Source: a virus (Duplodnaviria > Heunggongvirae > Uroviricota > Caudoviricetes). Taken from it: a stretch of DNA of 28,791 nt. Under the pieces are notes generated by a model that was given only the letters and a program-made list of their open reading frames with translations, had not been told where the DNA came from and made no database searches. Position numbers and translations under genes: made by a program. The DNA lies in the IMG/VR virus record IMGVR_UViG_3300042524_000214, positions 102,663 to 131,453 of that record. One strand, written 5' to 3'. Positions 1 through 25,952 of this stretch are shown here, piece after piece (within the stretch, counting starts at the first letter, position 1; each line of letters opens with the position of its first letter).

Positions 1-3000
1 TGTGTTGATGTCTTCGTATCTCTCTTCCGGTAAAGGTAGTTCTAAACCTAAATTTTCGGAGATAATGTTGTACTCCGCTAATTCTTGTAGGAACCTTTCT
101 GGAACACTATTAACTGCTTCTACTTTTGATAACTCATCATTGTTTATTAATTCTATTCCTTTATTAGTTACTTTGAAATATGTGTTACCAGTTGTTAAAA
201 TCCACTTGTTGAAGTCCTTTACAAAAACATCTGTCAAGTACTCCTCAGAGTTAGTTATTTTATTGAAATTATCAACAGCAACTCTTGATTTTTGAGTGGA
301 CATAGGAAAGTCAAAAAACTTTTTGTATAGAAACATTTTTTCTAAATTGTCAACATCTATTTCATAATCAGAAATCTCTAATTGATTTGCATTTTTTTGA
401 ACATAAGATTTTAAATCCTCTACTGTTGCTATACCCTCTGGCAATAAGTTTTTGTATTCAAAAAAGTTTTCATAAAGTGTGTCTAAAGATTCCTCTTTAA
501 CTTGTCTATAAATACCCTCGTCTTTTTTAACTAAACCAAATTTTGAAAACATTTCGTAATCAGATAAAGGCTCCTCAACAATAACATCATTATCACTATC
601 GCTTTTTATAATTTCTGTTTTGGCTTCTTTATCCCCAAGTACTTCATAGTACATATCAGAAAATTCTCTTAGGCTTTCCGTGTCTCCGGTGTTTGTTATA
701 GCGTTCTCCATAGAATCCAAAAATCCTAAAAGTTCCCCCCTAGATAATTCTAAAGCTAGTGTTGGTAAATTCCTTAAATCAATACCGTTTAAAAAAGCAT
801 TCTTCTTAATTTTGTTAAGTACCTTTGATACGTTTTTTAAATTGCTACTAAAAACTTCTTCCCCAATTTCTTCTCTTAAAAACTTTATGTCTTCTGAAAG
901 AGTGTCATTAAAGTTGTCTGTAATTGTGTTCTCCAACATTCCCTCAACGTCTTCTGTTTTGTCTGTTAACTCTTCACCTATTACATTTTTTATAGGGGCT
1001 TTTTTATAATCCCTTGCAATAGAATCCACTGTATCTCTAAAATCAGAATCTGTATAGTATTTATTAGTGAAAGCTGTTGGTAATGCTTCGTCAATTTCTG
1101 ACTCTTTTAACCCGGCTACACTTTGCATCAAATCGTCCTCTACTACATTAGGGTTGATAACCTCTTGTTTACCAAATTGGTTAACCTCTCTTCCTTGAGG
1201 TACAATAAAGTTTTCATCGTACTCTATAGTAAAAGGTTCACTATTTCTTAGTGCCAAAAGACTTTCTTTTATTTGCTTTTGTAATTTAGGCGAGCTAAGA
1301 ATAGTGTTTATTTCAAAACTATTGTATAACTTACTTCTTTGTAAAGACAGTTTATCAAAAAGGACAATTCCATTCTTCATCAAAGCTTTTTCCATCTTTT
1401 CAATAAGCTCTTGTGAGCTTTTGACTTTTAGCCCCATTGCTGCATTTTTGGCAGCTTTTATACCTTCTAGCCCTAAAGGTTTTACTTTAGAGTTTGAAAA
1501 GTCCATAAGAGTATTTATAGATGGCTCTCCATTAGAGTCTGTTTCCTTTAAAGAAACTTTTTTGGCTCTTCTTACCATTTCAAAATCAGAAGTTTTTTCA
1601 AATCCTAATGAAGAGTAGAAAGACTCAAGTCTCTCTGGTTTTGTGTTGTTGTCTCTAGGGCTTACGATTAGATAAACATCTTTGCCTTGGGCATCCGTTC
1701 CTTGTAAAAAAACATTGGCTACTTTTCTAGCGTTACCTTTACCTCTATCTAAAGACTCTATAAGCTCCCATTCAATACCATCAAGCTTCTCTCCCGTTGC
1801 TGGGTTAGTTCTTTCTTTTGCAAATATTTTAACTCCATCTTTTTCTAAAGAAGGTTGTCTAGTTGAAACTGGTGCAGATGGTGGATTGAATATTGACATT
1901 CTTGAGCCATCTTGTCCATTAACTATCTCTTTATACTTATCTTTTAACCCTTGAGAAATATCAGAGTTTTGTATAATATCTGCTATTTCCTTCTGTGTCT
2001 TTTTATAATAACCTACATACAAATTGTATAAAGGGTCATACCTTTTTTGAGCATTTCTTTCGCTGTTTATTTCTAAATATAGGCTTTTTAGTTTTTCCTC
2101 TTTGGAAACTGGTATAATAGATTTATAACCTTTTGTGGTATTACTATCATAAGAGTTCTGAAAAGGTTTTGATATTACGTTACCGTTTAGGGTTTGTGAA
2201 TCAACTGGAGAAAGTTCTTTTATTGACTGTGCTCTAGTTATGTTTTTCCATTGGCTAACAACCATTTCATACCCTAAATCCCCTGCTATTTTTGTAATGT
2301 AAGCTACTTGACTATTCGGGTCAAAGCTTTTTCCTGGATTCTCTTTATCGTGTTGTTCTTTGGCTACATCGTATAGGTTTAAAACATCTGTATTAAAGTC
2401 ATATACTTTATCTGTAGCTACTTTAACCATATATTTTGAACTTCCTGAAACCATTGTTTCTCCGTCTTCCGGTCTAGTATAATACATAGCTACTCCACCA
2501 ACTTTTGATAATGCAAATGCTTCTTGCTTTGATGTAGCAGTAGTGGCTCCGGAATTTACTTTTATAGTTTCATACCCGTTGTTACCAACATGATAGAACA
2601 CATAATTACCTTCTCCATCTTCTGTTAAATTCGCATAATTAGAAGAGTTTTCCGGGCTTATGTTTTCCCCTTTTGGTATTGATGTCCACTCTGGTAGTAA
2701 GCCTATTTTTTGCTCTGCAAAAGACATTTCCTCATAAACTTGTTCAGTAAGCTTTTTGGCTTCATCTAGTTTACCTTGTTGTCTCAAAACTCTAGCTTTA
2801 TCTCTCTTTTTGAAGACTTCATCATTAACTCCTGAGAAATTAACAAATGAATTTTGCCCTCTAGTTTCGGTAGTCATTGCTCTTCTAGCTAACGGTGAGT
2901 ACATTCTTGCGTGTATATTCCAAGCATTTTCTTCACCAATTGCTCCAAAGCCATTACCAAACTTAGCGTGACCAAAAAAGTCATGTACAAACCTAAAAAT

Positions 3001-6000
3001 ATCATTGGCTAATAAAGGTAATCCATTAGCATCTTTGTACTTAGTTTCTTGTAACAAAGGGTTCTCTTTTCTTTGTTTATCTGTTATTGGCTCATCTCCA
3101 AATCCTGACTCTGTAGAAAAGATTTTCATACTTTTGTTTTCACGCAAGTCTTTAATCATATCAGCAGAGCTGTCGTATGGTTCTGAATTGTTTATCTCAA
3201 CTTGATAACCTTTGTTTATTATTTTTTGGTACTGTTCCAAAGTCTCATCAACCATCGCCTTATACGCAGCTTTAGTTTCAGAGTCATTAGGTGTAGCTTT
3301 CATTTTAACAAACTCTTGAGCTATTCTTTTACTGTTATCCGTATCTAATTTTGTTATTTTTTGGATAGGGTTAGTACTCATTCCTTTTTCAGACATGTAC
3401 TCATTAGCTATAACAGCTGCATCTTCTAAAGGTTCGTTAAAAAGCTTATTCCCAGCTACAATAGAAAAGTTTATGTTTGAACTTCCTTCTATATCCCCAA
3501 ACTTAGCTTTTGCTTCTTGGGTTTTCTCATAAACTTGTTTAAAGTCCTCGAAAGACATATCTTTTCTTCTGGCGTAAGCTCTTATCATGTACATACCACC
3601 AAAAGTACCTGCATCTAAATGTACAGGTTTACCTCCTTTTATTCCCCAATTTTCTATATTTGTTAAGTCACCATAGATTATATCATAGTTTAAAAATTCT
3701 TGCAAACCATAGCTTTTAAGAACTTCTATTAAATCGGGATTTCTGGTGTCGAAATCAGCTTGACCATAAGGTGTAAGCTCTTGTATCATAACATCTGCAT
3801 CCTCAGTGTCATACTGCTTTCCGGTGTTAATGTCGTAAACAGGTACTTTGGTTTTGCTGCCAAGGACTTCTAATTTTTCAACTACTACATAATTTAACCC
3901 AGTTTCATACACTTGTGGAAGTAAGCCTTTGTCTATCAACTCAGGGTCTCCTTCTTGCATATTTTGGGCTAATCCTCTAGCTGTATTAGCTACTTTTAAT
4001 ACTTTACCGTCTCCCAAATCAAATACAACTCGGTCAGAACCTGAGGATAACTTTTTTAAGTTTGGTATGTCAAATCTTTCTCTAGCCACTTGGTTAATAT
4101 CGTATTTATATCTGAGGTAAACGTTGTTTTCCCCCATATTTCTTGATATTCTGTTACCAGATAACATTTCTGTAGCAGAGGCTGTCCCAAAATCGGCTAA
4201 TGTCATATTAGATACTTCATCTGCTGTGTAACTTGTCAGACCTAATACGTCTTTTATAGATTCCCAAAAACTTCTTAACCAATCTGCTATAGATTGCTCT
4301 TCTTTTGATTGTATTAGTTTAGCACCTTGGTCGCCAATTACTTGAGCTAGTACTTCATTGTTAAATTTCTCAGTACCTTCTTTTAAATCTGGCTGAGTTT
4401 CTTTTACAATGTCTATGTATTGCTGAGCCTCTTCTTTATTTTTTCCAATCAAAGATACCCCGGCTTTGTATAAGTCGTTTCTATTTTCTTTTAACCAATC
4501 TATGTGCAAATGACCAAACTCGTGAATAGGGGTGTCTAATGTCATAGCATCTGTGTTTAGATACACATCTCCTTTATAGGTAAACCCGGCAGTTGTTTTT
4601 TCTACATTTTCTTCTCCAAGTTCTACTAACTTATCTTCTATCTCAGAGTTAGACATCTGGTAGACATTATTAGCCAAACCTGATTGTTTTAGACGGTCTG
4701 ATACTTCTGTTAGTACCTCTTTTTTATTTGTTACTATCTCATTAGAAGATTTTCTATTCTGAGGAATAAATATTTGGTTCTCTCTTGCTGCATCTTCTGT
4801 ATCTTGTAGCAAAGAGTATAGTCTCTCTTTAGGAGTCATCTTTAAACGCTTTTCTACGTTTCTAGCTTCTTCTTCCCCCATAGCAGAACGATACCTTTGG
4901 TATAAATAATTGCTAGGTGCGAATATAATATCTCGGATTTCAGAAGGTGCATCATACCATTTTTTACCATTTAGTTTTGCTTCTTCCTCTTTTTTCTTTT
5001 CAACTAAGTCTTTATATTCATTTTCCTGCTCTGTACTTAAAAAGTAATATATCCCCCTAGTATTGGCTCCTTTTGCAAATCCCTCTTTTTGTTGAATCCA
5101 GTGTTGTATTTCATGTAAAGTTACTGGCAGTAATACAGCATTCAAATTATTAAAATCTGATTTTTGTAATGTTTCATTTGAACCCTCTTTAAAATCCTTT
5201 ACTATTTTGTCAAAACTGTCATTCTCCATCAAAAACATTGAATTAGAGGAACTCATTTTTGTCATTTCAGCATATCCTAATCTTTCAAGAATTTGTAAAT
5301 CTGCTTGTCTTTTATCATACGGGTACTTTTCAAAAGCCATATCTAAAATGTCTGAATATGACATACCAGAATCTCTTAAAGACTCTTTATAAGCATCTAT
5401 CTCTAGGTGCTTATTAACTATCCTTAAAACTTCCGGGTCTAAATTTTTGTATTTTTCTAACCTTGATTTAGCTTCAAAAAAGTCTTTTAGTTTATTGCTT
5501 TCTATACCCAATACAATTTGGCTACCGTCAAAGAACCCCTCTGTGGTAGTACCTCCTTTTTTAGATACAGATATTTTTACATCATTTAATTCTGGGTAGG
5601 CTTGGAATAATTCCGGGTAATTTAGTATAGATTTTAGGCTGTACTTTTTACCAAGTTTGCCCATAGAGTCTATCTTAAAATTCAATGAAGCTTTTGAACT
5701 ATCTAATTCATACTTCCATTGATTATCAGCTCCTTTTTGCCAACCCGTTGCTATTTTTATTTTTAGAGGGTTTTCGTTTGCTTTCTCCATTTCTATAGCA
5801 ACCTCTAAATTGTCAACTACAATTGTGTCTCCAGAGATAGCATCTAAATTTTGTGCACCTTTTAGTCCAACTATCGAAAAGCTAACGTCAGCCGGAGCCA
5901 CTTTGACTATTTTTTTAAAACGTTCTTTTAAAGCATTTAACTTAGTATCCATAGCTTCTTTAAGCTCTTCTACTTCGGTTAGTGCATAAATGTTTAAGGC

Positions 6001-6126
6001 GGTATTTTTATTACCGCCTGTTATATCTACTAAGTTATCAAAAAGTTTACTTCTGTTACCATTGCTAGCATTAACAAAATCTATTTGACCTTTTTCATCT
6101 CTGAAAATTCTACATTTTAAACTCAT
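1..6126 (-). CDS. Giant polyvalent virion protein, 3'-partial (>2042 aa): LPD23-like + zincin (HEIQH) + zincin (HEFGH) + Ser/Thr kinase-like + HD-x3-H domain + ADP-ribosyltransferase-like + GNAT + large unassigned C-terminal region
   Basis: Not in the ORF track. Hand translation from ATG at 6126 (MSLKCRIFRDEKGQIDFVNASNGNRSKLF...) shows no in-frame stop down to base 1. Motifs: TGWQKGADNQWKYELD and LNYPELFQAYPEL (5580-5750); TLHEIQH..Q..EGF (5101-5115) with GEEEARNVEKR (~4846-4878); TPIHEFGH (4510-4524) with EVLAQVIG; GSDRVV/VLKVA/GDL..NWG/LDAG (3607-4041); FRFVHDFFGH (HDFFGH 2968-2985); FYHVG/YYT/LGYE (2266-2598); RGKG/FYSSLGF (1600-1746). Confidence 0.93.
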   Translation of the reverse strand, partial: MSLKCRIFRDEKGQIDFVNASNGNRSKLFDNLVDITGGNKNTALNIYALTEVEELKEAMDTKLNALKERFKKIVKVAPADVSFSIVGLKGAQNLDAISGDTIVVDNLEVAIEMEKANENPLKIKIATGWQKGADNQWKYELDSSKASLNFKIDSMGKLGKKYSLKSILNYPELFQAYPELNDVKISVSKKGGTTTEGFFDGSQIVLGIESNKLKDFFEAKSRLEKYKNLDPEVLRIVNKHLEIDAYKESLRDSGMSYSDILDMAFEKYPYDKRQADLQILERLGYAEMTKMSSSNSMFLMENDSFDKIVKDFKEGSNETLQKSDFNNLNAVLLPVTLHEIQHWIQQKEGFAKGANTRGIYYFLSTEQENEYKDLVEKKKEEEAKLNGKKWYDAPSEIRDIIFAPSNYLYQRYRSAMGEEEARNVEKRLKMTPKERLYSLLQDTEDAARENQIFIPQNRKSSNEIVTNKKEVLTEVSDRLKQSGLANNVYQMSNSEIEDKLVELGEENVEKTTAGFTYKGDVYLNTDAMTLDTPIHEFGHLHIDWLKENRNDLYKAGVSLIGKNKEEAQQYIDIVKETQPDLKEGTEKFNNEVLAQVIGDQGAKLIQSKEEQSIADWLRSFWESIKDVLGLTSYTADEVSNMTLADFGTASATEMLSGNRISRNMGENNVYLRYKYDINQVARERFDIPNLKKLSSGSDRVVFDLGDGKVLKVANTARGLAQNMQEGDPELIDKGLLPQVYETGLNYVVVEKLEVLGSKTKVPVYDINTGKQYDTEDADVMIQELTPYGQADFDTRNPDLIEVLKSYGLQEFLNYDIIYGDLTNIENWGIKGGKPVHLDAGTFGGMYMIRAYARRKDMSFEDFKQVYEKTQEAKAKFGDIEGSSNINFSIVAGNKLFNEPLEDAAVIANEYMSEKGMSTNPIQKITKLDTDNSKRIAQEFVKMKATPNDSETKAAYKAMVDETLEQYQKIINKGYQVEINNSEPYDSSADMIKDLRENKSMKIFSTESGFGDEPITDKQRKENPLLQETKYKDANGLPLLANDIFRFVHDFFGHAKFGNGFGAIGEENAWNIHARMYSPLARRAMTTETRGQNSFVNFSGVNDEVFKKRDKARVLRQQGKLDEAKKLTEQVYEEMSFAEQKIGLLPEWTSIPKGENISPENSSNYANLTEDGEGNYVFYHVGNNGYETIKVNSGATTATSKQEAFALSKVGGVAMYYTRPEDGETMVSGSSKYMVKVATDKVYDFNTDVLNLYDVAKEQHDKENPGKSFDPNSQVAYITKIAGDLGYEMVVSQWKNITRAQSIKELSPVDSQTLNGNVISKPFQNSYDSNTTKGYKSIIPVSKEEKLKSLYLEINSERNAQKRYDPLYNLYVGYYKKTQKEIADIIQNSDISQGLKDKYKEIVNGQDGSRMSIFNPPSAPVSTRQPSLEKDGVKIFAKERTNPATGEKLDGIEWELIESLDRGKGNARKVANVFLQGTDAQGKDVYLIVSPRDNNTKPERLESFYSSLGFEKTSDFEMVRRAKKVSLKETDSNGEPSINTLMDFSNSKVKPLGLEGIKAAKNAAMGLKVKSSQELIEKMEKALMKNGIVLFDKLSLQRSKLYNSFEINTILSSPKLQKQIKESLLALRNSEPFTIEYDENFIVPQGREVNQFGKQEVINPNVVEDDLMQSVAGLKESEIDEALPTAFTNKYYTDSDFRDTVDSIARDYKKAPIKNVIGEELTDKTEDVEGMLENTITDNFNDTLSEDIKFLREEIGEEVFSSNLKNVSKVLNKIKKNAFLNGIDLRNLPTLALELSRGELLGFLDSMENAITNTGDTESLREFSDMYYEVLGDKEAKTEIIKSDSDNDVIVEEPLSDYEMFSKFGLVKKDEGIYRQVKEESLDTLYENFFEYKNLLPEGIATVEDLKSYVQKNANQLEISDYEIDVDNLEKMFLYKKFFDFPMSTQKSRVAVDNFNKITNSEEYLTDVFVKDFNKWILTTGNTYFKVTNKGIELINNDELSKVEAVNSVPERFLQELAEYNIISENLGLELPLPEERYEDINT

Positions 6127-6191: not shown

Positions 6192-9100
6192 TTACTTACA
6201 AGGTTTGTTTTTTTCGCTGTTTGCATCATCTTGTGCTTCATCGTTTAACTCGTACATTCTGTTTAACGCTTCCGTAACTCTGTCGCTTTGTACAAACTGG
6301 GCTTCTTCTAAAGATATTTTCTTTCTAAAGAATATTTTAGTGGCTATTTCTATAGCTTTTTCTTCAGTCACATCCCCCGTTTTCTGTGCTTCTGCAAACC
6401 AATCTTTTATAAGGTCTTTCAAATCATCTAGTTCTATGATAGGTTTCGGTGAAGAGAACATGTTGTTTTCCATATCTAAACCTATGCTAGCATCATTGGC
6501 TAAGTCATTAGCTGTATGTTCTGGCAACATCCAATCTTTTACACTACCTACATTAGTAACACTAGCTAAAGCATTTACTGCTTTCAACAAGTCTTCTGTA
6601 GGTAAACCTTCTGAATCAAGTATATTTTGATTATTTTCGTCTACATAAAATAAATTGTAAGATGCAGGAGAAAATCCATTATCTGCCAAAAGCTGATTAA
6701 GTTTTAAGGCTGACTCAGCTCTGTTTTTAGAACTGTTGAATATCTCAGTAACTTGTTCTGCTAAATCAGTTCCGGACTCTTTTAATGCTATTGGGAAAGC
6801 TACTAAATACTTACCTTGTCTTACAACAATTATTGGTTGATTTGTTCTTCCTAATAAACCTTTTATAAAATCTTCTCTTACCCCTTTTGTATTGTTTTTT
6901 AATACTAATTTACCATTTTCTATGTAACCGTAATCTATAACTTGGTCTGGTATAATGTCAAACATTTTTATAGAACCATCTTCAAAAGTAAAATTAGGAG
7001 AGCCTAAAAATATGTGTTTTATATAACTTGCTTTTGACAACGAAGCTACGCCCATAATCCCAGATTCCATTCTGCTTTTGAATACTTGTAAAGCTTCTGT
7101 TCTTAAATCTAAATAGCCAGGAATACCTGCTATATCATAAGCCGCTTTTAAATCCCCTAGTTTTCTACCATTTGCATCTACTACGTTTACTTTTATGTTC
7201 TCAAAAAGCTCTTTTTCCAGTTCTTCTACACTTCTACCCTCTTCTAAGCCTTTTTCATAGTTTTGTATAAGTTTTAAGTTGTACTCATCGTTCATGTCTA
7301 AACTAAAAGTAACTTCTGCTGACTCTCCCGGCTCCATGTTGTATATCTCCCTAGGAGAATAATCAGATGCGTTTCTGTAGTCTGTTTTTAGCTTCTCTCC
7401 AGACTCTAAATCATAAACAGGGGAATACCCCCCATTTCTGTTTAAAGTGCCTTCTACGTGCTTCATATTAGCTTCAGCCATTACTTTAGGGAAGTCTTCG
7501 CTTCTTACAGATATAGCACCGCTTCTTTCTATTGTTAGATTAACTTTGCTTCCATCGGTAAGGGTAACTATAAAGTTTGCCCCCGGTAAAGAGTTATCTT
7601 CTACCTCTGCTTGTGTAATTACTTTGGCGGAACCTTTTACTTCTACGTTTTTACCTTTCTCCCATTTAGTTTGTACATAACCTATTTCACCAGTTATGCC
7701 CATTCTTTGTAAAAGTCCAGGTAAAGTAAAGTGTGATATTTGTACAGAGTTTCCTTTTTTCTTAACAAAAACATTCTCATAAACTTGTATGTACTGCTCG
7801 TTTCTAATACCTTTGCTGTTCTCTATTTCTAGAGGTTCATTATCAGATAAGTTTATTAAATCGGAATCTGTGAGTTTTTCTCTAATTATCGGCTCCACTG
7901 TTTGTTTTACCGCCACAGCTTGCATTATCATTTGTTGTAAAGATACCCCATTTTCATTTTGGTACCCCTCTATCAATTGCCAATTAGCCATTTTATCATT
8001 TAGCTCTTGTAATCTAATTACCTCAGCTTTTGTTAAAGATGGTCTTGTTGTAGGTGTAAACCTATTTGAGTTGTACGGGTTTTTGAAAGCAATTAACTCC
8101 GTGTCAATACGTGGGTCGTCAATAGCTCTAGCTGCTAGTTCATAAAACTCTTCTATCTCGGCTTGTGTTGGAACTAAATCTAAAATATTACTTCCAAAAT
8201 TTTCTAATAGATAAGGACTATTCTTAACCATATCTACTATAGAGTCTATCAATGACTTTTTCTCTTGGATTGGTTCTGCTGTTTTTTCTTCATACTTTTT
8301 ATCAATAGCATCTAACTTAGCTTGTTTTTCTTTTTCAAGTTTAGTTATTTCTTTAGTGTTGTCTGCTATTTTTGTAGTTTGTGTGTTTTTATTTTCTTTT
8401 AACTTGTTTATTTTTGTATCGTAACTATCATTAATCTCTTTTAATCTTGATTTTTCTATTACCGGAATAACCTCAGAACCTATAATATTCAATAGATTAG
8501 CTCTGTGATTGCCATCTTCAAATTGTATTGTGCCATCAGGTAAGCGAATTATTTCTGAAGGGTTTGTTTTTACATATTCTACTATTTTATCAACAATACT
8601 TTTATCTGATTTTATAAAATCAATTAGCGGTTTTAATTCTTCTTTGGATTTATCTAATAATTCAGATGGTATACTTAATCCTAATAAATCTGACATATAG
8701 GATACTAAATCTTTCATTTGCTCAGAGGCAAACCCTTGAGTACCTATTCCTCCATTAGGTCTTCTAACATCCTCTGTATTTAATAATTCAACCTGTGAAC
8801 TTATTTCTTTTTGTCTTTCAGCTTCTATATCAGATTGAGAAATACCGACCTGTTGATTATTTAGCAACGGTGTTATTAGGTTATCATATTTATCATAGAT
8901 TTCTTCAAACTTAGCTTTATCATCTGGATTAGTTAATTTGTTTTTGTCTACTTTACCATCTGTCAAAGCATTTTTTGCCTCCGGTATACTCGAAAGTAAT
9001 TCTTTTTGCTCTTGTTCTCTTAACTTAGCTATTTGTTTAGGGCTGTCCTCTTCATCAACTATCTCTTCAGTTGTAGTTTGTAGACCTGCAATCTTGGCAG

Positions 9101-11981
9101 CATACTCATCAATTACTTTTTGTTTTTCTGCTTCTTTTGCGGCTTGTTTTTCCTCAGCTGTAGGCTTAGGTATAGTATCCCCATTCTTTTCAGTTTCTCT
9201 TACGTCTTCCCCTTTATCTGTAACTTCTTGTACTTTTTCATTACCTTCAAGAGTAGCTAAAACAACTTGGTTTTTGGCTTGTACCATTCTAGGTAACAAA
9301 GTTTCAATCATTTCGATTGTAGCTTCATTAGGAGATTTATCTCTTTTTATTTCAGAGATTATGTTTCTCTTACCTCTAAGACCAAGTTTAGGGTCTGTAA
9401 TTTGTCTTGCTAAATCTGCATACCTTTCAAAAGCACCTAATGATTTACCATACTCTTCCGCCAATTTTTGTAGCTCTAAAGCATCTTGTGGGCTAACTTT
9501 TTCATAAGAAGATACTAATTCTTTTATAGCTTGCGATTGCTCTTTTAAAACCTCTAACTTAGCTGCTGTAATAATTATATTTGTGCCGCTTTTGTTAAAT
9601 GGGTTTTTTAATTTAGCTGTATTAAATAAAATATCTGCCTCCTTAGCTAAGTTAGTTCTTTCTTGTTCTAACTGTGCTTTTTTGGTAGTTATGGAATCCA
9701 TCTTACCTAATATACTTTTCTTCTGTTCTTCAGAAGTAGAGTTGTAGAAAGTAGTTTCTAATTTTTTGTATTCCTCGTCTAAAGACATCATCTCAGATTT
9801 TAATTTTGTTATCTGAGAAACTTTATTTTCAACTTGTCTTTTGGTGTCTTTACCAGCTTTTGCTAATACGTCTTCAATAGCCAAGGTGTCAGAAATATCT
9901 TGCCCTAGTATTGTATTACCTACTTTGTTTTTTATAGCCTCCAGTATGTTGCTTGAAAAAGTGTCCATTTCTGCACCCATTGTCAATTCATAAGCTAGAG
10001 CTTCTCTAAGGGCGGTTACATCGTGCCCTTTAAGCATTTCTTTTTCTTGTTTTGATAATTTTGAGTTTATAAAATAATTAGCAAAATCACTATTTTTTTT
10101 GTAGTTATTTGCTGTAGTTTTATACTCATCTATCATTTTTTGTTTTAACTCTTGTGCACCTTTCTCATCTACTCCGTACTCTTGCATCAAAGTTGCATCA
10201 TCCATATTTTTTATGGCTGTCTCGGTATCTGCAACAGCATCATCCATATAACCTAAGTTATAAGCAAAGTTTAACTGTGCTAAAGCTGCATCTTTTCTTG
10301 ACATTTCTTGTCCTACAAAATCCCCATCTGCCTCGGCTCTTTGAGAGTTTTCTTGTGCTTGTTGTACTCTATTACCGTAAGCCATTACTTCGGCAATCCT
10401 AGTCCCAGAGTATGTGTTTCTAGTATCTACAATAAGTTTGTTTTCGGCTACTGCTCTACTATAATCAGGGTTCCATTTTCCGGTAGAAATTCTGTTACCA
10501 GCGGTACCACCTATTAAACCAATAAGCATACCCATTTGTATCTCTTTCCAACCCTCAGCTGTACCATAGGTTTTAGCTAATCCGCTAGAAAAAGAGTCAA
10601 TTAAGTCTAACCCATTCTTAGTATATTTTGGGTCATATTTTGCTTCTACCCAATTCTTACCGGTATTTTGTACAGCGGACTGCATACCCTCTTCCCAAAC
10701 ACCCTCTACGAACATTGGTTTAGTAAAACCATAAGTTTTTCCTAAGGCTTTTTGAAATTTGTTTGCAGAAGTTTCTACAAATTCTTCCCCTACTTTTTTA
10801 TAACCTACTCCAAAAAGTTTAGAGTCTGCCCATTTTCCTGGTGCCGATAAAGGATTTTTTACGTTGAACCATTTACCCATTACAGCTAAGTTGGATGAAC
10901 CTACAATAGCCATATTAGTTGCAAATACCCCATTTGAGGCACTGCTTAGGTTTCTTCTAAACTCAGACTCTTCTTCAGCTGTAGGCATTCTACCATTTAG
11001 CCTTTCAAAGTCGGTATAGTAACCTTCTTCCATTTCTTTTTTGAAAGCATTTGCTTCAAATGCTGACTCAAAGCCTGCACTTGTAGCTGTAAATCTAGCT
11101 GTGTGTAACAACTCTCCTACTCTTCCAAAAGTGGTAGCTAGCTTGGTTTCTAACTGCCCCGTTGCAAAAACTTTTGCTGCTGGGTTCGCTAATGTTCTAG
11201 CTTTATTTAATGTGTTTAAAAATCTTTCTGACTGAGCTAATTTTGCTCCCCATCTTGCCCCTGCTGTTGAAGCTGCTGCTCCACCTGTAGCCCATTCTAT
11301 AGCAACCTCTGAAAGAATAGCTCCTCCAAAGAATGCCATACCATTAGCAAAATCATCTGCCCAAGTTGTAGCATTAGTAAAATAATCTAACCCCGTGGCT
11401 TCTCTGTCTGCTTTTGATTTATATGTTGTAAGTTTATTGTCTAAATATGTATTTACATCATTAACGTAATCCATAAATTTATTGTCATAAAGAGACTGCA
11501 TATTACCTGTCTGAGCCATGTCATACAGACCATACGCAACACCACCAATTTGACCTACTGTGTTGTTTAAAAGTTTTCCCCAATATTTTGGGAAAGCGTT
11601 CCCCCATATTTCACCAGAAGTTTGTTTACTTGCTGCATAATCCTCTTGGTCTAAGTTTACTGTAGAGTAAGTATCATACCTTGCTACTCTACTTCCGTCA
11701 GAGTAATCTCTATAAACATCTGAAGAGCTAACGTTAGAGTAGTCAACAAGCTTTACCTTGTTAGCCTCTTTCATACTAAGGCTAGCAATTGTATCTTGTT
11801 TTGGCATACTACCAACGCTTTGAAGATTACCTACGATTTCATCCATAGGAGTAACCACTGATAACGCTTTGTCATAGTTGGTTGCTCTGATGTCGTCTAC
11901 AATAAAATTTAACTCATCATTTCTTACGTCTGAAAGAGTTTTTGCTGGTGTGTCTATATCTGGAAGGTTTCCTGTTAACAT
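6192..11981 (-). CDS. Large virion cargo/ejection protein (1929 aa) with N-terminal hydrophobic Gly/Ala segments, long coiled coils and an inserted ParB/sulfiredoxin-like domain
   Basis: 1929-aa ORF starting 2 nt after the stop of the upstream gene. Hydrophobic stretches FFGGAILSEVAIEWATGGAAASTAG, MAIVGSSNLAVMG and MGMLIGLIGGTAG; E/K-rich helical middle; IIRLPDGTIQFEDGNHRANLLNIIGSEVIPV (DGNHR at 8502-8516) fits the ParB/Srx DGxHR signature. The ejection role is inferred from size and position. Confidence 0.75.
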   Translation of the reverse strand: MLTGNLPDIDTPAKTLSDVRNDELNFIVDDIRATNYDKALSVVTPMDEIVGNLQSVGSMPKQDTIASLSMKEANKVKLVDYSNVSSSDVYRDYSDGSRVARYDTYSTVNLDQEDYAASKQTSGEIWGNAFPKYWGKLLNNTVGQIGGVAYGLYDMAQTGNMQSLYDNKFMDYVNDVNTYLDNKLTTYKSKADREATGLDYFTNATTWADDFANGMAFFGGAILSEVAIEWATGGAAASTAGARWGAKLAQSERFLNTLNKARTLANPAAKVFATGQLETKLATTFGRVGELLHTARFTATSAGFESAFEANAFKKEMEEGYYTDFERLNGRMPTAEEESEFRRNLSSASNGVFATNMAIVGSSNLAVMGKWFNVKNPLSAPGKWADSKLFGVGYKKVGEEFVETSANKFQKALGKTYGFTKPMFVEGVWEEGMQSAVQNTGKNWVEAKYDPKYTKNGLDLIDSFSSGLAKTYGTAEGWKEIQMGMLIGLIGGTAGNRISTGKWNPDYSRAVAENKLIVDTRNTYSGTRIAEVMAYGNRVQQAQENSQRAEADGDFVGQEMSRKDAALAQLNFAYNLGYMDDAVADTETAIKNMDDATLMQEYGVDEKGAQELKQKMIDEYKTTANNYKKNSDFANYFINSKLSKQEKEMLKGHDVTALREALAYELTMGAEMDTFSSNILEAIKNKVGNTILGQDISDTLAIEDVLAKAGKDTKRQVENKVSQITKLKSEMMSLDEEYKKLETTFYNSTSEEQKKSILGKMDSITTKKAQLEQERTNLAKEADILFNTAKLKNPFNKSGTNIIITAAKLEVLKEQSQAIKELVSSYEKVSPQDALELQKLAEEYGKSLGAFERYADLARQITDPKLGLRGKRNIISEIKRDKSPNEATIEMIETLLPRMVQAKNQVVLATLEGNEKVQEVTDKGEDVRETEKNGDTIPKPTAEEKQAAKEAEKQKVIDEYAAKIAGLQTTTEEIVDEEDSPKQIAKLREQEQKELLSSIPEAKNALTDGKVDKNKLTNPDDKAKFEEIYDKYDNLITPLLNNQQVGISQSDIEAERQKEISSQVELLNTEDVRRPNGGIGTQGFASEQMKDLVSYMSDLLGLSIPSELLDKSKEELKPLIDFIKSDKSIVDKIVEYVKTNPSEIIRLPDGTIQFEDGNHRANLLNIIGSEVIPVIEKSRLKEINDSYDTKINKLKENKNTQTTKIADNTKEITKLEKEKQAKLDAIDKKYEEKTAEPIQEKKSLIDSIVDMVKNSPYLLENFGSNILDLVPTQAEIEEFYELAARAIDDPRIDTELIAFKNPYNSNRFTPTTRPSLTKAEVIRLQELNDKMANWQLIEGYQNENGVSLQQMIMQAVAVKQTVEPIIREKLTDSDLINLSDNEPLEIENSKGIRNEQYIQVYENVFVKKKGNSVQISHFTLPGLLQRMGITGEIGYVQTKWEKGKNVEVKGSAKVITQAEVEDNSLPGANFIVTLTDGSKVNLTIERSGAISVRSEDFPKVMAEANMKHVEGTLNRNGGYSPVYDLESGEKLKTDYRNASDYSPREIYNMEPGESAEVTFSLDMNDEYNLKLIQNYEKGLEEGRSVEELEKELFENIKVNVVDANGRKLGDLKAAYDIAGIPGYLDLRTEALQVFKSRMESGIMGVASLSKASYIKHIFLGSPNFTFEDGSIKMFDIIPDQVIDYGYIENGKLVLKNNTKGVREDFIKGLLGRTNQPIIVVRQGKYLVAFPIALKESGTDLAEQVTEIFNSSKNRAESALKLNQLLADNGFSPASYNLFYVDENNQNILDSEGLPTEDLLKAVNALASVTNVGSVKDWMLPEHTANDLANDASIGLDMENNMFSSPKPIIELDDLKDLIKDWFAEAQKTGDVTEEKAIEIATKIFFRKKISLEEAQFVQSDRVTEALNRMYELNDEAQDDANSEKNKPCK

Positions 11982-11983
11982 TT

Positions 11984-14788
11984 TTATCTTATTTTTGTTT
12001 GTAGTACTTGTTTTCTTCTTTCCATTATTTCATTTTCTAAGTAACTATTTATTAAAGACATAGTGTTAGTATTAAATGTATGGGTATTGTAATCAATAGC
12101 TACTGGAGGCATGTTTTTAATCATTTTACCGTTCTTCATAAGAGTTGGATAAAACGCTCCTGATTTTCTTTCCCAGTTAACTGAGTAGTTTGCCTCTAAT
12201 ACATTTGTAGAATAGTCTTGTAAGTATTCTTTTGGTAAGTACTTTGATGCTACGTCTAACAATTCGTCTTTTGTTTTAAACTCAGAAAAATTTGTTCTTT
12301 GTATTAATTCAGTTATCCCTTGAGGTAAAGAATTAGAGTAGTTGCCCAAATACTTATTAGAAAACTCATATCTTGAGTCTAAGTCTACAAAAGGTTTATA
12401 GTGTAACAACACTTTCATTTCTTGCGGATTGCTCTTAGAATAAGCCCATTCTGTTTTATTGGTCTGCATGCTGCTCATTAAGTTAGAAGGTAAGTTAGAA
12501 ACAGGTATTTGTACCGTGTCTCTTACTATTTCTTTTGTTTGTCCTCCTTTTTCTTTTGGTATTAGTAGTTCGTTGTCAAAAGAAACTGTGGCTATACCGT
12601 TCTCTACTTTTTGTATTAATATGTTTGTGCCTTTTTCTGGGCTTTTCCCTTGTGCATATAAAGCAGATTTAACTGCATCAATATACGGTACATCCCCTTT
12701 ATTACCTGAACTTAAAACTACAGACATTGTTTTATCTAAATTAGCTTCTTGTTGTTTTAGTATAAGGTCGAATTTTGAAGCTACTGATGTTTTTGTGTTT
12801 AATATTCTATCAGTTACTCCTTCTCCATTTTTTAGATTAATATCGTTTCCTTCAATCTCATTCAAATTAGTATCTGAACTAAACGTTCTACCTATTACTT
12901 TAGCTTGATTTAAAATTCCTTTGAAGCCTTTTGCAAAACCTTCTCTTGAATCTTGTGCGTATTTTGAGGCATCTGTATTAAATATTTTTGCTTTGGCACC
13001 CATAGTCATAGCAGACCATGTTCCTTGAGCAATACCTGACATAGTTTCCCAACCAGATTCCCAAAACCCTGGATTTTCTGTTTTGTATTTTTCTAGCTCT
13101 TTATCAGAAATTTTATTTTCTTGTTTTACTCCTTGTAGATAAAAGTCCATTCTTTTTTTATCGTCTTCATCATCAAGAACGTAATCCTTTATATTTTTGG
13201 CAATCTCATAAGAAGCCATTGCTTTTTCTTTTGGTGTTAACTGTGAAGCATTTTTGTATTTTTTAAGAAGTTCTGCTGTATATGGCATGCTGGTTGAAAG
13301 ACCACTTACATTTAAGTCTTTTGTTTTACCTCCAAATAAACCATTTAAAGTCTCATTAACATCTTTGCTATAATACTCGGTAGCGGCTTTCTTTAAGTTA
13401 TAAGAAATTTTATTATGGTATTCTACTTTTTTATAACTTTCTAATACCTCTGGACTAAATCCTTGGGCATTAATGTCTGTACCCTCTTTAGAAGTTTTCT
13501 TTAAGTTAATGTAATAGTTGGTTACATCCTTGTCTGTAGCACTCTTACCTTCTTTTTGTAACTGTTGTTTTACTACTTGTTTGAATTCGTTGTATGAAGT
13601 GTTTCTTCCTTTTTCATATAGTGCTAAAGGAGATTCTTTTTCTTTTTCATTAACTTTTTCTTCTACGCTTGTAAATGCAGTACCTGCTGGCAATCCTTGT
13701 GCTGCACCTGTACCTAAACCAGCACCTTTACCTGTTCCGGTTCCTTTTCCTGATTTGTAAAAATCATCGTTTTCTATGTCTGTTATTTCAGAATACCCAA
13801 AAGTTTTCTTGTAAGACTCAATTAAATTGTGTGTCTCATTTTTGTATAAAAAGCTATCTCTATTAAAATTTTTAGGGTCTAATTGAGATTCAAAAAATTC
13901 TTTTTGTTGACTTGTATAAGACTTCTTCTGATTAAGTGTTTCTAACTTAGCTTTATCATCTGGATTAGTATTTTTAATATCCGTGTCTATAGAAGACAAC
14001 GTTACATCGTACTTATTTAACAAAGGTTTAGCTTGGTCTTGGTACTCTTTTAATAAAGACTCATCTGGAACACCTCTATATTTATAGTGGGCATTAATCA
14101 TTAGCTGGTCTTTAAGTTTTGTATCAGATTGAATTCTATTATTTACAAAACTGTCTATCTCTTCCGGTTTTATCCTTTTTCCTTTTACTGTTTGGTAAAT
14201 GTAACCACCCTGTACACTAGTGTCTACAACTCTTTCAAAACCTCTTTCTTTAGCCCATTTATCTAATGGCTCGTTAAGGTTTTTTGTTACATCGTAGTAT
14301 TCTTTGTATTGTAAGTTACCTAAATCATCTGTTTCCCCTTTCATATAAGCAGCATAGCCCGACTTATCTAACGCATACGCATAATTGGCATCGTTATATA
14401 ATTCAGGCTTTTGTTTTTTAACTCTTGCAGCTTCTTGTTGAAAGCTTTGTATTTTTTGGGAATTTCCTATTTGTGTTTTTACATTCTCATCAATAGCAGT
14501 ACTAATATAGTTGTTTACTTGTCTAGCAACATTATTATTAGTCATATCTACTTTAGAGTTAGCATCTACCATTGATAATAGCCCATGGAGTCTATCCCCA
14601 AGATACTTTTTATCCTGTTCTCTAGCTAAAGGAACACTTGTTATTTTTTGTATTAAGTCGTCTACTTTAGCTACGTTGACATCAAATCTTTGTTGTAAAG
14701 CTGTTTGAACTTGACCCGTTAATTGCACCACATCCATAGTGGATATAGCGTGCCCGTAGTTTATAGGTGTAGAATATGCGTTTGCCAT
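11984..14788 (-). CDS. Putative virion cargo/ejection protein (934 aa)
   Basis: Long ORF with a helical N-terminus (QQRFDVNVAKVDDL...QDKKYL...VDMTNNNV) resembling crAss-like cargo proteins (recollection, not searched), a Gly/Thr/Lys linker (KSGKGTGTGKGAGLGTG) and its own upstream promoter. No catalytic motif recognised. Confidence 0.65.
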   Translation of the reverse strand: MANAYSTPINYGHAISTMDVVQLTGQVQTALQQRFDVNVAKVDDLIQKITSVPLAREQDKKYLGDRLHGLLSMVDANSKVDMTNNNVARQVNNYISTAIDENVKTQIGNSQKIQSFQQEAARVKKQKPELYNDANYAYALDKSGYAAYMKGETDDLGNLQYKEYYDVTKNLNEPLDKWAKERGFERVVDTSVQGGYIYQTVKGKRIKPEEIDSFVNNRIQSDTKLKDQLMINAHYKYRGVPDESLLKEYQDQAKPLLNKYDVTLSSIDTDIKNTNPDDKAKLETLNQKKSYTSQQKEFFESQLDPKNFNRDSFLYKNETHNLIESYKKTFGYSEITDIENDDFYKSGKGTGTGKGAGLGTGAAQGLPAGTAFTSVEEKVNEKEKESPLALYEKGRNTSYNEFKQVVKQQLQKEGKSATDKDVTNYYINLKKTSKEGTDINAQGFSPEVLESYKKVEYHNKISYNLKKAATEYYSKDVNETLNGLFGGKTKDLNVSGLSTSMPYTAELLKKYKNASQLTPKEKAMASYEIAKNIKDYVLDDEDDKKRMDFYLQGVKQENKISDKELEKYKTENPGFWESGWETMSGIAQGTWSAMTMGAKAKIFNTDASKYAQDSREGFAKGFKGILNQAKVIGRTFSSDTNLNEIEGNDINLKNGEGVTDRILNTKTSVASKFDLILKQQEANLDKTMSVVLSSGNKGDVPYIDAVKSALYAQGKSPEKGTNILIQKVENGIATVSFDNELLIPKEKGGQTKEIVRDTVQIPVSNLPSNLMSSMQTNKTEWAYSKSNPQEMKVLLHYKPFVDLDSRYEFSNKYLGNYSNSLPQGITELIQRTNFSEFKTKDELLDVASKYLPKEYLQDYSTNVLEANYSVNWERKSGAFYPTLMKNGKMIKNMPPVAIDYNTHTFNTNTMSLINSYLENEIMERRKQVLQTKIR

Positions 14789-19252: not shown

Positions 19253-19618
19253 ATGAAAACTTTATTACTAGGAATTTTTAGTTTTATTTTTTACAACGGG
19301 TTTTTTACATTCTCAAAAAGTAATACTATTATTTTATCTATATTTACAGATAAGCAATTACATTTTGCTGTATTCTTTTTATACCCTTTGGTTTTTTTAT
19401 ATTTTCTTCCTAAAAATAAGATTATTACTATAATAACTCTTTTATTTTTTGGTACTATGACTTTTGGTATAGAAGTATTACAAAGAAAATATTTCCATAG
19501 AACTTATTCTATGCTAGATTTTAAATACTCCTTTTGTGGGTTTTTGTCCTCTTGCCTTGTATTACTAATCCTAAATACTATATCTTATTTTGGCTCTTTA
19601 AAGAAGTTCTCCATTTAG
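19253..19618 (+). CDS. VanZ-like family membrane protein (121 aa)
   Basis: Several hydrophobic segments plus the VanZ-type signature DKxxHF ... GIEVLQ...R..S.LD...G (FTDKQLHFAVFF; FGIEVLQRKYFHRTYSMLDFKYSFCG). It fills a gap with no minus-strand gene and has a -7 box upstream. Confidence 0.78.
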   Translation: MKTLLLGIFSFIFYNGFFTFSKSNTIILSIFTDKQLHFAVFFLYPLVFLYFLPKNKIITIITLLFFGTMTFGIEVLQRKYFHRTYSMLDFKYSFCGFLSSCLVLLILNTISYFGSLKKFSI

Positions 19619-23359: not shown

Positions 23360-23369
23360 ATTTTTATTT

Positions 23370-25580: not shown

Positions 25581-25590
25581 ATTTTTGGTT

Positions 25591-25947
25591 TTATTTTATT
25601 AATACAGCTTCTTTTCCGAAACCATCTACCCTCAGCATAAATTTAAAATCTACTTTTACCGGGAATTTTATTTTATTGATTTCTAAAACTTGTTTTTGTG
25701 TTATATTTTTTTGTATGATAATATCATAATCACTTGAATCTATCCAATACCCTTTTACTCTTGACCCAAATAAATACATCTGACACTCTCCTATAGTAGT
25801 TTCTAGTAAGTCCTTTATAATGTGTAATACTTTTTTACAATCCTCTGGTAATTCTTTCCACTCTGTTATTAAAGGATGAACTGCCAGTCTTTTTACTGGC
25901 AGCTTAAATCCTAATGGGTTCCCTATGTATGGGTATTGTTTTCTCAT
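25591..25947 (-). CDS. Minimal nucleotidyltransferase (Pol-beta superfamily), 118 aa
   Basis: YLFGSRVKG....SDYDI = hG[GS]x9-13Dh[DE]h signature, with a probable third acid in VKVDF. The start is more likely 25947 (MRKQYPY, 5 nt after the upstream TAA) than the 25983 of the track. Confidence 0.8.
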   Translation of the reverse strand: MRKQYPYIGNPLGFKLPVKRLAVHPLITEWKELPEDCKKVLHIIKDLLETTIGECQMYLFGSRVKGYWIDSSDYDIIIQKNITQKQVLEINKIKFPVKVDFKFMLRVDGFGKEAVLIK

Positions 25948-25952
25948 ATTAT

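What the first reader, a model, noticed from the sequence alone, without database searches (positions are those of the whole stretch)
1560..5880. Giant virion protein missed by the ORF track is a 7-module polyvalent effector array (peptidases, kinase, ART, GNAT)
Seen: one uninterrupted frame 6126 to <1 carrying, N to C, LPD23-like (~5520-5880), zincin HEIQH...GEEEAR (~4780-5130), zincin HEFGH...E (~4230-4600), kinase (~3560-4100), HD-x3-H domain (~2660-3400), ART-like (~2220-2620) and GNAT (~1560-1830). Established: phage and conjugative-element polyvalent proteins concatenate such domains and are proposed to be delivered with the DNA during host conflict. Inference: its position after the ejection genes suggests a virion-injected toolkit with three different post-translational writers (phosphorylation, ADP-ribosylation, acetylation) plus two proteases for host takeover or anti-defence. 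This density and order in a Bacteroidota phage may be new.
Basis: partly seen in the sequence, partly recalled or inferred. Interest (0 to 1): 0.8.

Follow-up and report, generated by a model that had tools for sequence, protein, structure and literature searches.

The report
Multi-enzyme polyvalent phage virion protein
This is a real 2,162-residue gene of a 131-kb marine flavobacterial-type phage that strings two zinc proteases, a stripped-down protein kinase, an unknown metal-site domain, an AcrIF11-like ADP-ribosyltransferase fold and a small acetyltransferase onto a conserved virion-protein tail. It is a good new example of the already described "polyvalent proteins" that phages are thought to inject with their DNA, not a new kind of system.

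Summary
One minus-strand frame runs from window 6126 off the left edge, and the full ORF is 2,162 aa.

- **Zincin 1:** LPD23 and the HEIQH zincin form one IrrE/M78/SprT/DUF6782-type metallopeptidase unit, so there are six enzyme-type units, not seven.
- **Zincin 2:** HEFGH plus an invariant Glu is a widespread polyvalent-protein zincin.
- **Kinase:** it keeps Lys/Glu/Asp/Asp and matches small Ser/Thr kinases by fold. It fits the truncated kinase clade Iyer et al. 2017 described for Bacteroidetes phages.
- **ART-like module:** it has no Pfam match, but a confident model (pLDDT 93) hits only ART-superfamily structures. The best is the anti-CRISPR ADP-ribosyltransferase AcrIF11.
- **GNAT:** supported.
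- **HDxxxH domain:** very conserved and common in phage giant proteins, but still unassigned. There are weak hints of a zincin variant.

Orthologues keep an N-terminal ~80 aa and a C-terminal GNAT plus ~600 aa, and swap the modules between them. The C-terminus and all neighbouring genes are collinear with mass-spectrometry-verified virion proteins of Cellulophaga phage phi4:1.

Verdict: new member of a known kind. This scan has already met close relatives on other DNA.

The parts
1..6126 (-). Window part (residues 1-2042) of the 2,162-aa polyvalent protein gene. The ORF ends 363 nt beyond the window's left edge.
5887..6126 (-). Conserved N-terminal head (residues 1-80). It is kept in orthologues whatever array follows. 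Its first ~50 residues resemble the N-terminus of the next giant virion protein (P0127).
   Evidence: BLASTP E 1e-4; HMM over genome ORFs E 6.5e-4
4717..5859 (-). LPD23 plus zincin 1 as one metallopeptidase unit (residues 90-470). LPD23 at 103-149, lineage-specific insert ~215-330, HEIQH 338-342, EGFAKG, GEEEARNV 417-424.
   Evidence: LPD23 47/47 members, DUF6782 25/47 best 4e-12, Peptidase_M78 10/47, SprT-like 9/47; IrrE 3dte E 0.029
4087..4689 (-). Zincin 2 (residues 480-680). H535, E536, H539 and E591 are invariant in 35 diverse relatives.
   Evidence: SprT-like 3/35, weak; weak hits on the N4 virion RNA polymerase region 2186-2346
3472..4101 (-). Truncated protein-kinase-like domain (residues 676-885). 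Gly-rich SSGSDRVV, then K711, E725, D820 and D838 (HLDAG).
   Evidence: AFDB small Ser/Thr kinases E 3e-5 to 1e-3; residues invariant including stand-alone homologues; PMC5512222 section 10
2647..3474 (-). Conserved HDxxxH domain of unknown function (residues 885-1160). R1045, H1048, D1049, H1053, E1065, E1066, N1067, H1072, R1089, Q1091 and N1092 are invariant.
   Evidence: (pLDDT ~90)
1927..2634 (-). ART-superfamily domain (core residues ~1171-1323) with a helical C-terminal extension to ~1400. H1179, Y1216, E1202, E1223, D1247, W1293 and R1298 are conserved.
   Evidence: 322 cluster representatives; pLDDT 92.9
1522..1830 (-). Minimal GNAT acetyltransferase domain (residues ~1433-1535), motif A RGKGNA at 1461-1466. 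It belongs to the constant C-terminal part.
1..1449 (-). C-terminal anchor (residues 1560-2162; residues 2043-2162 lie outside the window). Homologous to virion protein gp037 of Cellulophaga phage phi4:1 and to a 752-aa protein of csAssE-Sib.

Best explanation
The gene encodes a phage polyvalent protein. It is a virion-carried cargo or ejection protein built from three parts: a constant N-terminal head (~80 aa), a constant C-terminal part (a small GNAT plus ~600 aa related to a proven virion protein), and a swappable string of enzyme modules in between. In this phage the string has five units. The first is an LPD23-fronted IrrE/M78/SprT-type zincin. The second is another zincin. The third is a protein kinase that lacks the usual C-terminal lobe but keeps its catalytic Lys/Glu/Asp/Asp. 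The fourth is a strongly conserved HDxxxH/GEEN metal-site domain of unknown activity. The fifth is an ART-fold, NAD-using domain whose nearest solved relative is the anti-CRISPR ADP-ribosyltransferase AcrIF11. The inferred working model is as follows. The protein is packed in the capsid through its constant parts together with its giant neighbours. It is extruded into the cell ahead of or with the DNA. The zincins cut it into active pieces and/or attack host proteins. The kinase, the ART-fold domain and the GNAT then modify host proteins (defence, transcription or translation factors) within the first minutes of infection. What is shown here: the ORF, the module borders, the family or fold of five of the six enzyme units, conservation of catalytic residues, cassette swapping among orthologues, and homology and collinearity with MS-verified virion proteins. 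What is inferred: packaging in this phage, ejection, self-processing, substrates, and catalysis itself.
For: - **ORF and genome:**
- **Hallmark domain:** Pfam LPD23, E 9.5e-11.
- **Zincin 1:** 47 diverse relatives share LPD23 directly followed by HExxH...GE.EARNV. Of these, 25 hit DUF6782 (putative metallopeptidase), 10 hit Peptidase_M78 and 9 hit SprT-like. The best solved relative is IrrE.
- **Zincin 2:** H535/E536/H539/E591 are invariant.
- **Kinase:** K711/E725/D820/D838 are invariant down to 39% identity. Foldseek hits are almost all kinases, APH, NleH, OspG or RIO, with AFDB small Ser/Thr kinases at E 3e-5 to 1e-3. Iyer 2017 describes exactly such a truncated kinase clade in Bacteroidetes phage polyvalent proteins.
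- **GNAT:** PDB profile hits are nearly all GNATs. Orthologues hit Acetyltransf_1 (7.8e-5), Acetyltransf_CG, _7 and _10. Atlas features score 0.94 to viral GNAT clusters.
- **Cassette swapping:** 66 orthologues share GNAT plus ~598 aa but show at least 15 N-terminal architectures, some with true ART-PolyVal or a CCA-adding enzyme plus HD.
- **Virion link:** residues 1651-2161 match phi4:1 gp037, annotated from MS/MS. The window genes match phi4:1 gp042, gp040, gp039, gp038 and gp035 in the same order. The crassvirus cargo-ejection model is in PMC10172136.
Against: - No data on this phage's virion. The homology to phi4:1 gp037 is only 26% identity over the last 510 residues.
- The ART-fold domain is not Pfam ART-PolyVal (hhalign probability 1%). 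Its catalytic acid is not assigned. Its next-best structural neighbours are RES/MbcT-type NAD-degrading toxins, so transfer versus NAD breakdown is open.
- Zincin 2 has no significant link to a named zincin family.
- The most conserved module (HDxxxH) has no assigned function.
- Nothing shows self-cleavage or any host target.
Confidence: 0.72

Rival explanations
1. It is mainly an ejectosome or internal-core building block. The protein's job would be to form or clear the DNA channel through the envelope, with the zincins and the HDxxxH domain cutting peptidoglycan peptides or envelope proteins. The other enzyme-like modules would be secondary or structural.
For: It sits among giant virion genes next to a 921-aa glucosaminidase plus CHAP lysin. 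The HDxxxH module occurs inside a 4,012-aa 'lysin' next to a 'lysozyme' gene in Nostoc phage Nsp-JY18, and in other podophage giant proteins annotated as lysins. An ART-fold domain is present in a structurally resolved pre-ejectosome chain of cyanophage A4 (PMC12002296).
Against: Kinase, ART-fold and GNAT domains need ATP, NAD and acetyl-CoA, which are cytoplasmic. Their catalytic residues are conserved. The modules are swapped freely among orthologues, which fits effectors better than a structural channel.
Confidence: 0.13
2. It is a polyprotein made and used inside the infected cell. It would not be packaged, and its position among virion genes would be incidental.
For: No direct virion data for this phage. 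Only the last quarter of the protein is related to a proven virion protein.
Against: There is collinearity with seven consecutive phi4:1 genes, six of them MS/MS-verified virion proteins. The head motif is shared with the neighbouring virion protein homologue. The HDxxxH domain is fused to MuF head-morphogenesis domains elsewhere. Polyvalent proteins as a class are tied to virion contexts (PMC5512222).
Confidence: 0.08
3. For the ART-like module only: it is an NAD-degrading (RES/MbcT-like) or nucleic-acid-directed (DarT/Tpt1-like) enzyme, not a protein ADP-ribosyltransferase.
Against: The F-Y-H-x-[SG] and M-Y-Y-T motifs match the H...Y pattern of H-Y-[ED] ARTs such as diphtheria toxin, AcrIF11 and ART-PolyVal. 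The top hit in both searches is AcrIF11.
Confidence: 0.3

Closest known systems
Polyvalent proteins of phages and conjugative elements (Iyer, Burroughs, Anand, de Souza, Aravind 2017, J Bacteriol, PMC5512222)
   Same: A giant phage protein joining unrelated enzyme domains (zincin MPTases, truncated S/T/Y kinase, ART fold, GNAT, LPD domain). It is encoded among virion genes, shows extensive cassette mosaicism between orthologues, and has stand-alone versions of the same domains in phages.
   Different: The ART-fold and HDxxxH modules match no Pfam model derived from that work. Here LPD23 is shown to be the front half of a zincin. The carrier is a crAss-related or Lightbulbvirus-type virion protein, not MuF, portal or N4 RNA polymerase.
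Cellulophaga phage phi4:1 / phi17:2 (Lightbulbvirus) gp037 and its neighbours gp035-gp042
   Same: gp037 (517 aa, MS/MS-verified virion protein) aligns with residues 1651-2161. gp042, gp040, gp039, gp038 and gp035 match the window's neighbouring genes in the same order.
   Different: gp037 is only the anchor. It lacks the ~1,600-residue enzyme array, and identity is 26%.
AcrIF11 (PDB 6KYF, 8DWQ), anti-CRISPR ADP-ribosyltransferase
   Different: Sequence identity is 13%. The catalytic acid equivalent to D115 is not identified, no CRISPR target is known, and here the domain is embedded in a giant protein.
Crassvirus cargo proteins (crAss001 gp45-gp50; Bayfield et al. 2023, PMC10172136) and the cyanophage A4 pre-ejectosome (PMC12002296)
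   Same: Large proteins encoded after the muzzle or tail genes, stored in the capsid and proposed to be extruded partly unfolded before the DNA. The neighbour P0127 has crAss-phage homologues. An A4 pre-ejectosome chain carries an ART-like fold.
   Different: No sequence homology of this protein to crAss001 cargo proteins was detected. Those proteins are not described as multi-enzyme arrays.

Membership tests
Polyvalent proteins (Iyer et al. 2017) | Two or more domains of disparate biochemical activity in one polypeptide of a phage or conjugative element | tested here: met
   Zincins, kinase-like, ART fold and GNAT in one 2,162-aa ORF of a complete 131-kb phage genome
Polyvalent proteins (Iyer et al. 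2017) | Carries a hallmark LPD or MPTase domain | tested here: met
   Pfam LPD23 E 9.5e-11, above the curated cut-off
Polyvalent proteins (Iyer et al. 2017) | Encoded in a virion or DNA-delivery gene context | tested here: met
   Collinear with phi4:1 gp042-gp035 virion proteins
Polyvalent proteins (Iyer et al. 2017) | Packaged and transmitted into the host with the DNA | not testable with these tools
   Needs virion proteomics and infection experiments
Zincin metallopeptidase, IrrE/M78/SprT/DUF6782 type (zincin 1) | HExxH on a helix plus a downstream Glu-bearing helix, conserved across relatives | tested here: met
   H338, E339, H342, E348 and G417-E418 invariant in 47 relatives
Zincin metallopeptidase, IrrE/M78/SprT/DUF6782 type (zincin 1) | Sequence homology to a named zincin family | tested here: met
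   Met through relatives: DUF6782 25/47 (4e-12), Peptidase_M78 10/47 (2e-5), SprT-like 9/47; IrrE 3dte E 0.029. The window's own copy hits only LPD23.
Zincin metallopeptidase (zincin 2) | HExxH plus third ligand Glu, conserved | tested here: met
   H535, E536, H539 and E591 invariant in 35 relatives
Zincin metallopeptidase (zincin 2) | Homology or fold match to a known zincin | tested here: inconclusive
   SprT-like in 3/35 at E 0.02; N4 virion RNA polymerase 2186-2346 at E 0.7-0.9; hhalign to zincin 1 probability 8%; not folded
Protein kinase-like superfamily (truncated polyvalent-protein clade) | Gly-rich loop, beta3 Lys, alphaC Glu, catalytic Asp, metal-binding Asp | tested here: met
   SSGSDRVV, K711, E725, D820 and D838 invariant including stand-alone homologues at 39-49% identity
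Protein kinase-like superfamily (truncated polyvalent-protein clade) | Kinase fold | tested here: inconclusive
   [not shown]
ADP-ribosyltransferase superfamily | ART fold (split beta-sheet NAD-binding core) | tested here: met
   [not shown]
ADP-ribosyltransferase superfamily | H-Y-[ED] (or R-S-E) catalytic constellation | tested here: inconclusive
   H1179 57/58 and Y1216 57/58 are conserved. Candidate acids E1202, E1223 and D1247 are invariant, but none was assigned by superposition.
Pfam ART-PolyVal (PF18760) | Match to the family model | tested here: not met
   No hit in 58 members. hhalign against true ART-PolyVal modules from orthologues gives probability 1%. True PF18760 modules sit elsewhere in orthologues.
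GNAT acetyltransferases | Motif A R/Q-x-x-G-x-G/A and the beta4-alpha3-beta5-alpha4 core | tested here: met
   RGKGNA 1461-1466. PDB profile hits are GNATs, best 1u6m at E 0.004. GNAT-clan Pfam hits in up to 10 of 30 orthologues, best 7.8e-5. Atlas score 0.94.
GNAT acetyltransferases | Complete GNAT fold including the N-terminal arm | not tested
   The domain is only ~100 aa and matches cover the C-terminal half. No model was made.
HD-domain phosphohydrolases (PF01966), for the HDxxxH module | Match to the HD model (H...HD...D, all-helical) | tested here: not met
   No PF01966 hit in 35 members. The model shows a small beta-sheet before the motif helix.
Zincin variant (HExxxH type), for the HDxxxH module | Strand, then motif helix, then Glu helix, homologous to zincins | tested here: inconclusive
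   hhalign aligns strand plus HDFFGH with VYLN..HEFGH of zincin 2 (E 0.007, probability 5%) and GEENAW with GEVEARNV of zincin 1 (E 0.03). The secondary-structure order fits. The domain was not searched alone.

The most novel reading that the evidence does not exclude
The two unannotated modules could be new enzyme families of injected phage weapons. One is an AcrIF11-like ADP-ribosyltransferase family (over 300 sequence clusters). It may disable CRISPR-Cas or another defence the moment the protein enters the cell. The other is an HDxxxH metalloenzyme that ranks among the most conserved domains of phage giant proteins. Both would ride on a 'carrier plus cassette' platform in which a shared N-terminal head peptide and a GNAT-bearing tail load any enzyme string into crAss-related marine phage particles.
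Probability: 0.25. Interest if true: 0.7.

Novelty: new member of a known kind. Interest (0 to 1): 0.4.

Why it matters
Polyvalent proteins are predicted, but almost untested, first-strike weapons of phages. This one is a compact, well-delimited example in the abundant marine Flavobacteriia / crAss-related phage world. It has intact catalytic residues and natural orthologues that differ by whole cassettes. It yields three concrete, testable leads. First, an ART-fold family nearest the anti-CRISPR AcrIF11 that current domain libraries miss. Second, a very conserved metal-site domain with no known function. Third, the observation that Pfam's LPD23 is the front end of a zincin. It does not reveal a new kind of system.

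Tried and rejected
- **Virion RNA polymerase idea dropped.** I first took the split phrog_37948 gene at 22424-28715 for a crAss-type virion RNA polymerase. The csAssE-Sib record calls its homologue the muzzle protein, so I dropped that.
- **Sequence searches of solved structures.** These gave nothing significant for the kinase (best was the effector kinase SteC at E 0.2 on the Gly-loop/Lys region), the HDxxxH domain, the ART-like module (only calmodulin-like noise on the helical tail) or zincin 2.
- **Pfam on the whole protein.** It finds only LPD23. NCBIfam finds nothing.
- **ART-PolyVal membership rejected**.
- **Classical HD phosphohydrolase rejected** for the HDxxxH module.
- **Combined alignment discarded.** A combined HDxxxH plus ART-like alignment (A10) misplaced the first ~35 residues of the ART-only rows. 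Stand-alone kinase rows also misaligned in a kinase plus HDxxxH alignment and were left out. This left the kinase alignment shallow and its N-lobe poorly modelled.
- **HDxxxH fold barely tested.** VIA-align and Foldseek PDB searches with the two-domain model were filled by kinase matches, so the HDxxxH domain was barely tested against solved structures. I therefore do not claim it has no known fold.
- **Atlas feature searches for HDxxxH.** They gave only unnamed viral clusters, and nothing among named clusters.
- **No close DNA relative** in the phage collection.
- **No complex prediction** was attempted.

Full report
**The object.** The six-frame ORF list shows a minus-strand frame from window 6126 to 1 (2042 aa) that is open at the window edge. 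That open end is why a closed-ORF track missed it. The window is the last 28.8 kb of a single 131,453-bp contig whose two ends overlap by about 145 bp, so it is a complete phage genome. In the genome the frame runs 120 codons further, giving 2,162 aa (P0003). GC content is 31-41% throughout, with coding-strand skew.

**Module borders from comparative data.** A search of 5.8 billion proteins gave 179 long relatives. I mapped which parts of the query each one covers. This splits the protein into nine parts:
- a head, residues 1-80
- 80-480 (LPD23 plus zincin 1)
- 480-680 (zincin 2)
- 680-885 (kinase-like)
- 885-1160 (HDxxxH)
- 1160-1400 (ART-like)
- a constant C-terminal part from ~1400, made up of GNAT and a ~600-aa anchor

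I built profiles of each module and scanned 66 orthologues with them. Every orthologue ends in GNAT plus ~598 aa and most start with the same head. The middle, however, has at least 15 different architectures: modules are missing, reordered or replaced. Replacements include true Pfam ART-PolyVal, DUF3990, and a CCA-adding enzyme plus HD domain. At least twelve orthologues share exactly the present order. This is the mosaicism Iyer et al. 2017 describe for polyvalent proteins (PMC5512222).

**Zincin 1 and LPD23.** Pfam finds LPD23 at residues 103-149. A dedicated search and BLAST mapping show a consistent pattern in dozens of unrelated polyvalent proteins. There the LPD23 segment is followed directly by the HExxH, EGFAxG and GE.EARNV segment. 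In this lineage a ~115-residue insert (215-330) separates the two. In a 47-member alignment, W, YP, HExxH, E, F, G and GE are invariant. Scanning the members against Pfam gives LPD23 in 47/47, DUF6782 (putative metallopeptidase) in 25/47 (best 4e-12), Peptidase_M78/IrrE in 10 and SprT-like in 9. The best solved relative is IrrE (E 0.029), aligned over the strand and the HExxH.

**Zincin 2.** In 35 diverse relatives H535, E536, H539 and E591 are invariant. Links to named families are weak: SprT-like in 3/35, and E 0.7-0.9 to residues 2186-2346 of the N4 virion RNA polymerase. Iyer et al. identified that same N4 stretch as a zincin. I accept it as a zincin on motif conservation. Family placement is open.

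**Kinase.** No Pfam or PDB sequence match was found. Only 35 relatives are in hand, three of them stand-alone proteins. Across all of them the Gly-rich SSGSDRVV, K711, E725, D820 and D838 (HLDAG) are invariant. The Asp-to-Asp spacing of 18 equals that of classical kinases.

The AlphaFold model of residues 676-1165 is poor in the kinase N-lobe and good from residue ~755. Even so:
- Foldseek PDB rows are almost all kinases, aminoglycoside phosphotransferases, RIO, and the minimal effector kinases NleH and OspG, at E 0.06-0.2.
- AFDB clusters give small 'Ser/Thr protein kinase' entries at E 3e-5 to 1e-3.
- BFVD gives phage protein kinases.
- A profile search's best solved hit is the effector kinase SteC, on the Gly-loop/Lys segment (E 0.2).

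Iyer et al. describe a monophyletic kinase clade that has lost the C-terminal subdomain. [quoted passage not shown] This module fits that description.

**HDxxxH domain.** This is the most widespread module. It shows 50-68% identity across more than 100 otherwise unrelated giant proteins. It also occurs in isolated phages:
- a 4,012-aa 'lysin' of Nostoc phage Nsp-JY18
- Planktothrix, Microcystis and Synechococcus phages
- Octadecabacter virus
- 199 mycobacteriophages and 68 Flavobacterium phages

Invariant residues are R1045, H1048, D1049, H1053, E1065, E1066, N1067, H1072, R1089, Q1091 and N1092. No Pfam family and no solved relative by sequence were found. Atlas and AFDB give only unnamed proteins. 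BFVD shows it in polyvalent, ART-PolyVal-bearing and MuF-fused phage proteins.

The model is confident (pLDDT ~90). It shows a small sheet, then the HDFFGH helix, then the GEENAW helix. Profile-profile comparison aligns the strand plus HDFFGH with zincin 2's VYLN..HEFGH, and GEENAW with zincin 1's GE.EARNV. Both are at low probability. A zincin variant of the HExxxH type mentioned by Iyer et al. is my best guess, at about 45%.

**ART-like module.** A profile search of 1.84 billion representatives found 322 clusters, nearly all inside giant proteins. None of 58 diverse members hits any Pfam family. hhalign against true ART-PolyVal modules gives only 1% probability, although it lines up FYH with YHGS and YYT with FT.

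The model has pLDDT 92.9. Foldseek's top PDB hit is 6kyf (E 2.3e-3, prob 0.99), followed by PE-like, iota, cholix, diphtheria, pertussis, PltA, NatT and RES toxins. VIA-align against 48,161 representatives puts only ART-superfamily chains on core residues 7-159:

|---|---|
| 6kyf (AcrIF11), rmsd 3.9, 119 aligned | 7.0 |
| VPA0770 | 6.4 |
| MbcT | 6.2 |
| Xre-RES | 6.0 |
| cyanophage A4 pre-ejectosome chain, residues 1418-1625 | 5.8 |
| ParT | 5.7 |
| PltA | 5.6 |
| NatT, TreX | 5.2 |

**GNAT.** Motif A (RGKGNA) and the following strand-helix-strand align with GNATs. The evidence is:
- 35 of 42 PDB profile hits are GNATs (best E 0.004)
- GNAT-clan Pfam families hit up to 10 of 30 orthologues (best 7.8e-5; this copy hits FR47 at E 0.038)
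- atlas features point to small viral GNATs (0.94)

The domain is minimal (~100 aa).

**Context and delivery.** PHROG and tblastn matches tie the window's genes to consecutive genes of Cellulophaga phage phi4:1, as follows:

| Window gene(s) | phi4:1 gene |
|---|---|
| 25953-28715 and 22424-23404 | gp042 |
| 17059-19194 and 14847-17066 | gp040 |
| 11984-14788 | gp039 |
| 6192-11981 | gp038 |
| residues 1651-2161 of this protein | gp037 |
| the next gene (P0127, 1,908 aa) | gp035 (94% coverage, E 9e-92) |

All these phi4:1 proteins are annotated from MS/MS of virions. In csAssE-Sib the anchor homologue is a 752-aa protein and the gp042 homologue is called the muzzle protein. P0127 also has crAss-phage homologues. 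For crassviruses, capsid and tail storage and partly unfolded ejection of such cargo proteins has structural support (PMC10172136). The first ~50 residues of this protein resemble the N-terminus of P0127 (E 1e-4 pairwise; E 6.5e-4 over all genome ORFs). That similarity suggests a shared loading or processing signal. Packaging and ejection of this protein are therefore well-grounded inferences, not observations.

**Comparison and verdict.** Everything defining a polyvalent protein that can be tested here is met. The kinase, zincin, GNAT and ART themes are all in the 2017 description. The scan has already reported close relatives on other DNA (e1-1851407, e1-1869053) and many analogous proteins. 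This work adds four things:
- the LPD23-zincin unification
- fold-level assignment of an unannotated ART family nearest AcrIF11
- delimitation of the HDxxxH family as a major unknown
- the carrier-plus-cassette picture, with a head shared by neighbouring cargo proteins

It is a new member of a known kind, of moderate interest.

Noticed in passing
window 22424-28715: The homologue of phi4:1 gp042 / the csAssE-Sib 'muzzle protein' (phrog_37948, 2,289-aa profile) is in two ORFs. ORF 25953-28715 matches profile positions 1028-1749 and ORF 22424-23404 matches 2051-2288. Between them lie a 736-aa PKD-domain ORF and a 130-aa nucleotidyltransferase ORF.
   Followed up: partly
window 5887-6126 and L001:7060-7208 (genome ~102060-102210): The first ~50 residues of the polyvalent protein and of the next giant virion protein (P0127) share a motif of the form C-[RT]-I-x5-G-x-I-D-x-V-x3-N-G-x2-S-x-L-F. 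This may be a common loading or processing signal. The same head profile also gives a weaker internal hit at residues 664-719, at the start of the kinase module (E 5.9e-5), which I cannot explain.
   Followed up: partly
window 19578-22343: A 921-aa virion-block protein with an N-terminal glucosaminidase (PF01832, 6e-16) and a CHAP domain (1e-4). It is a multi-domain cell-wall hydrolase next to the cargo genes.
   Followed up: no
window 17059-19194: A 711-aa gp040-like protein gives many Pfam whole-sequence hits with no individual domain passing (DUF732, TSCPD, UBA-like and others, at residues 360-655). This suggests a repetitive or low-complexity linker region, not real domains.
   Followed up: no
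genome ends (G000:C1 1-145 and 131309-131453; the latter is window ~28647-28791): The two contig ends repeat about 145 bp with at least one mismatch. This is either a circular-assembly overlap or a terminal repeat.
   Followed up: no
L004 (Nostoc phage Nsp-JY18) 5839-17877: A 4,012-aa 'lysin' gene of an isolated cyanopodophage carries the same HDxxxH domain (37% identity) next to 'lysozyme' and 'acetyltransferase' genes. It could serve as a handle for experiments on this domain in a cultured system.
   Followed up: no
[not shown]
   Followed up: partly
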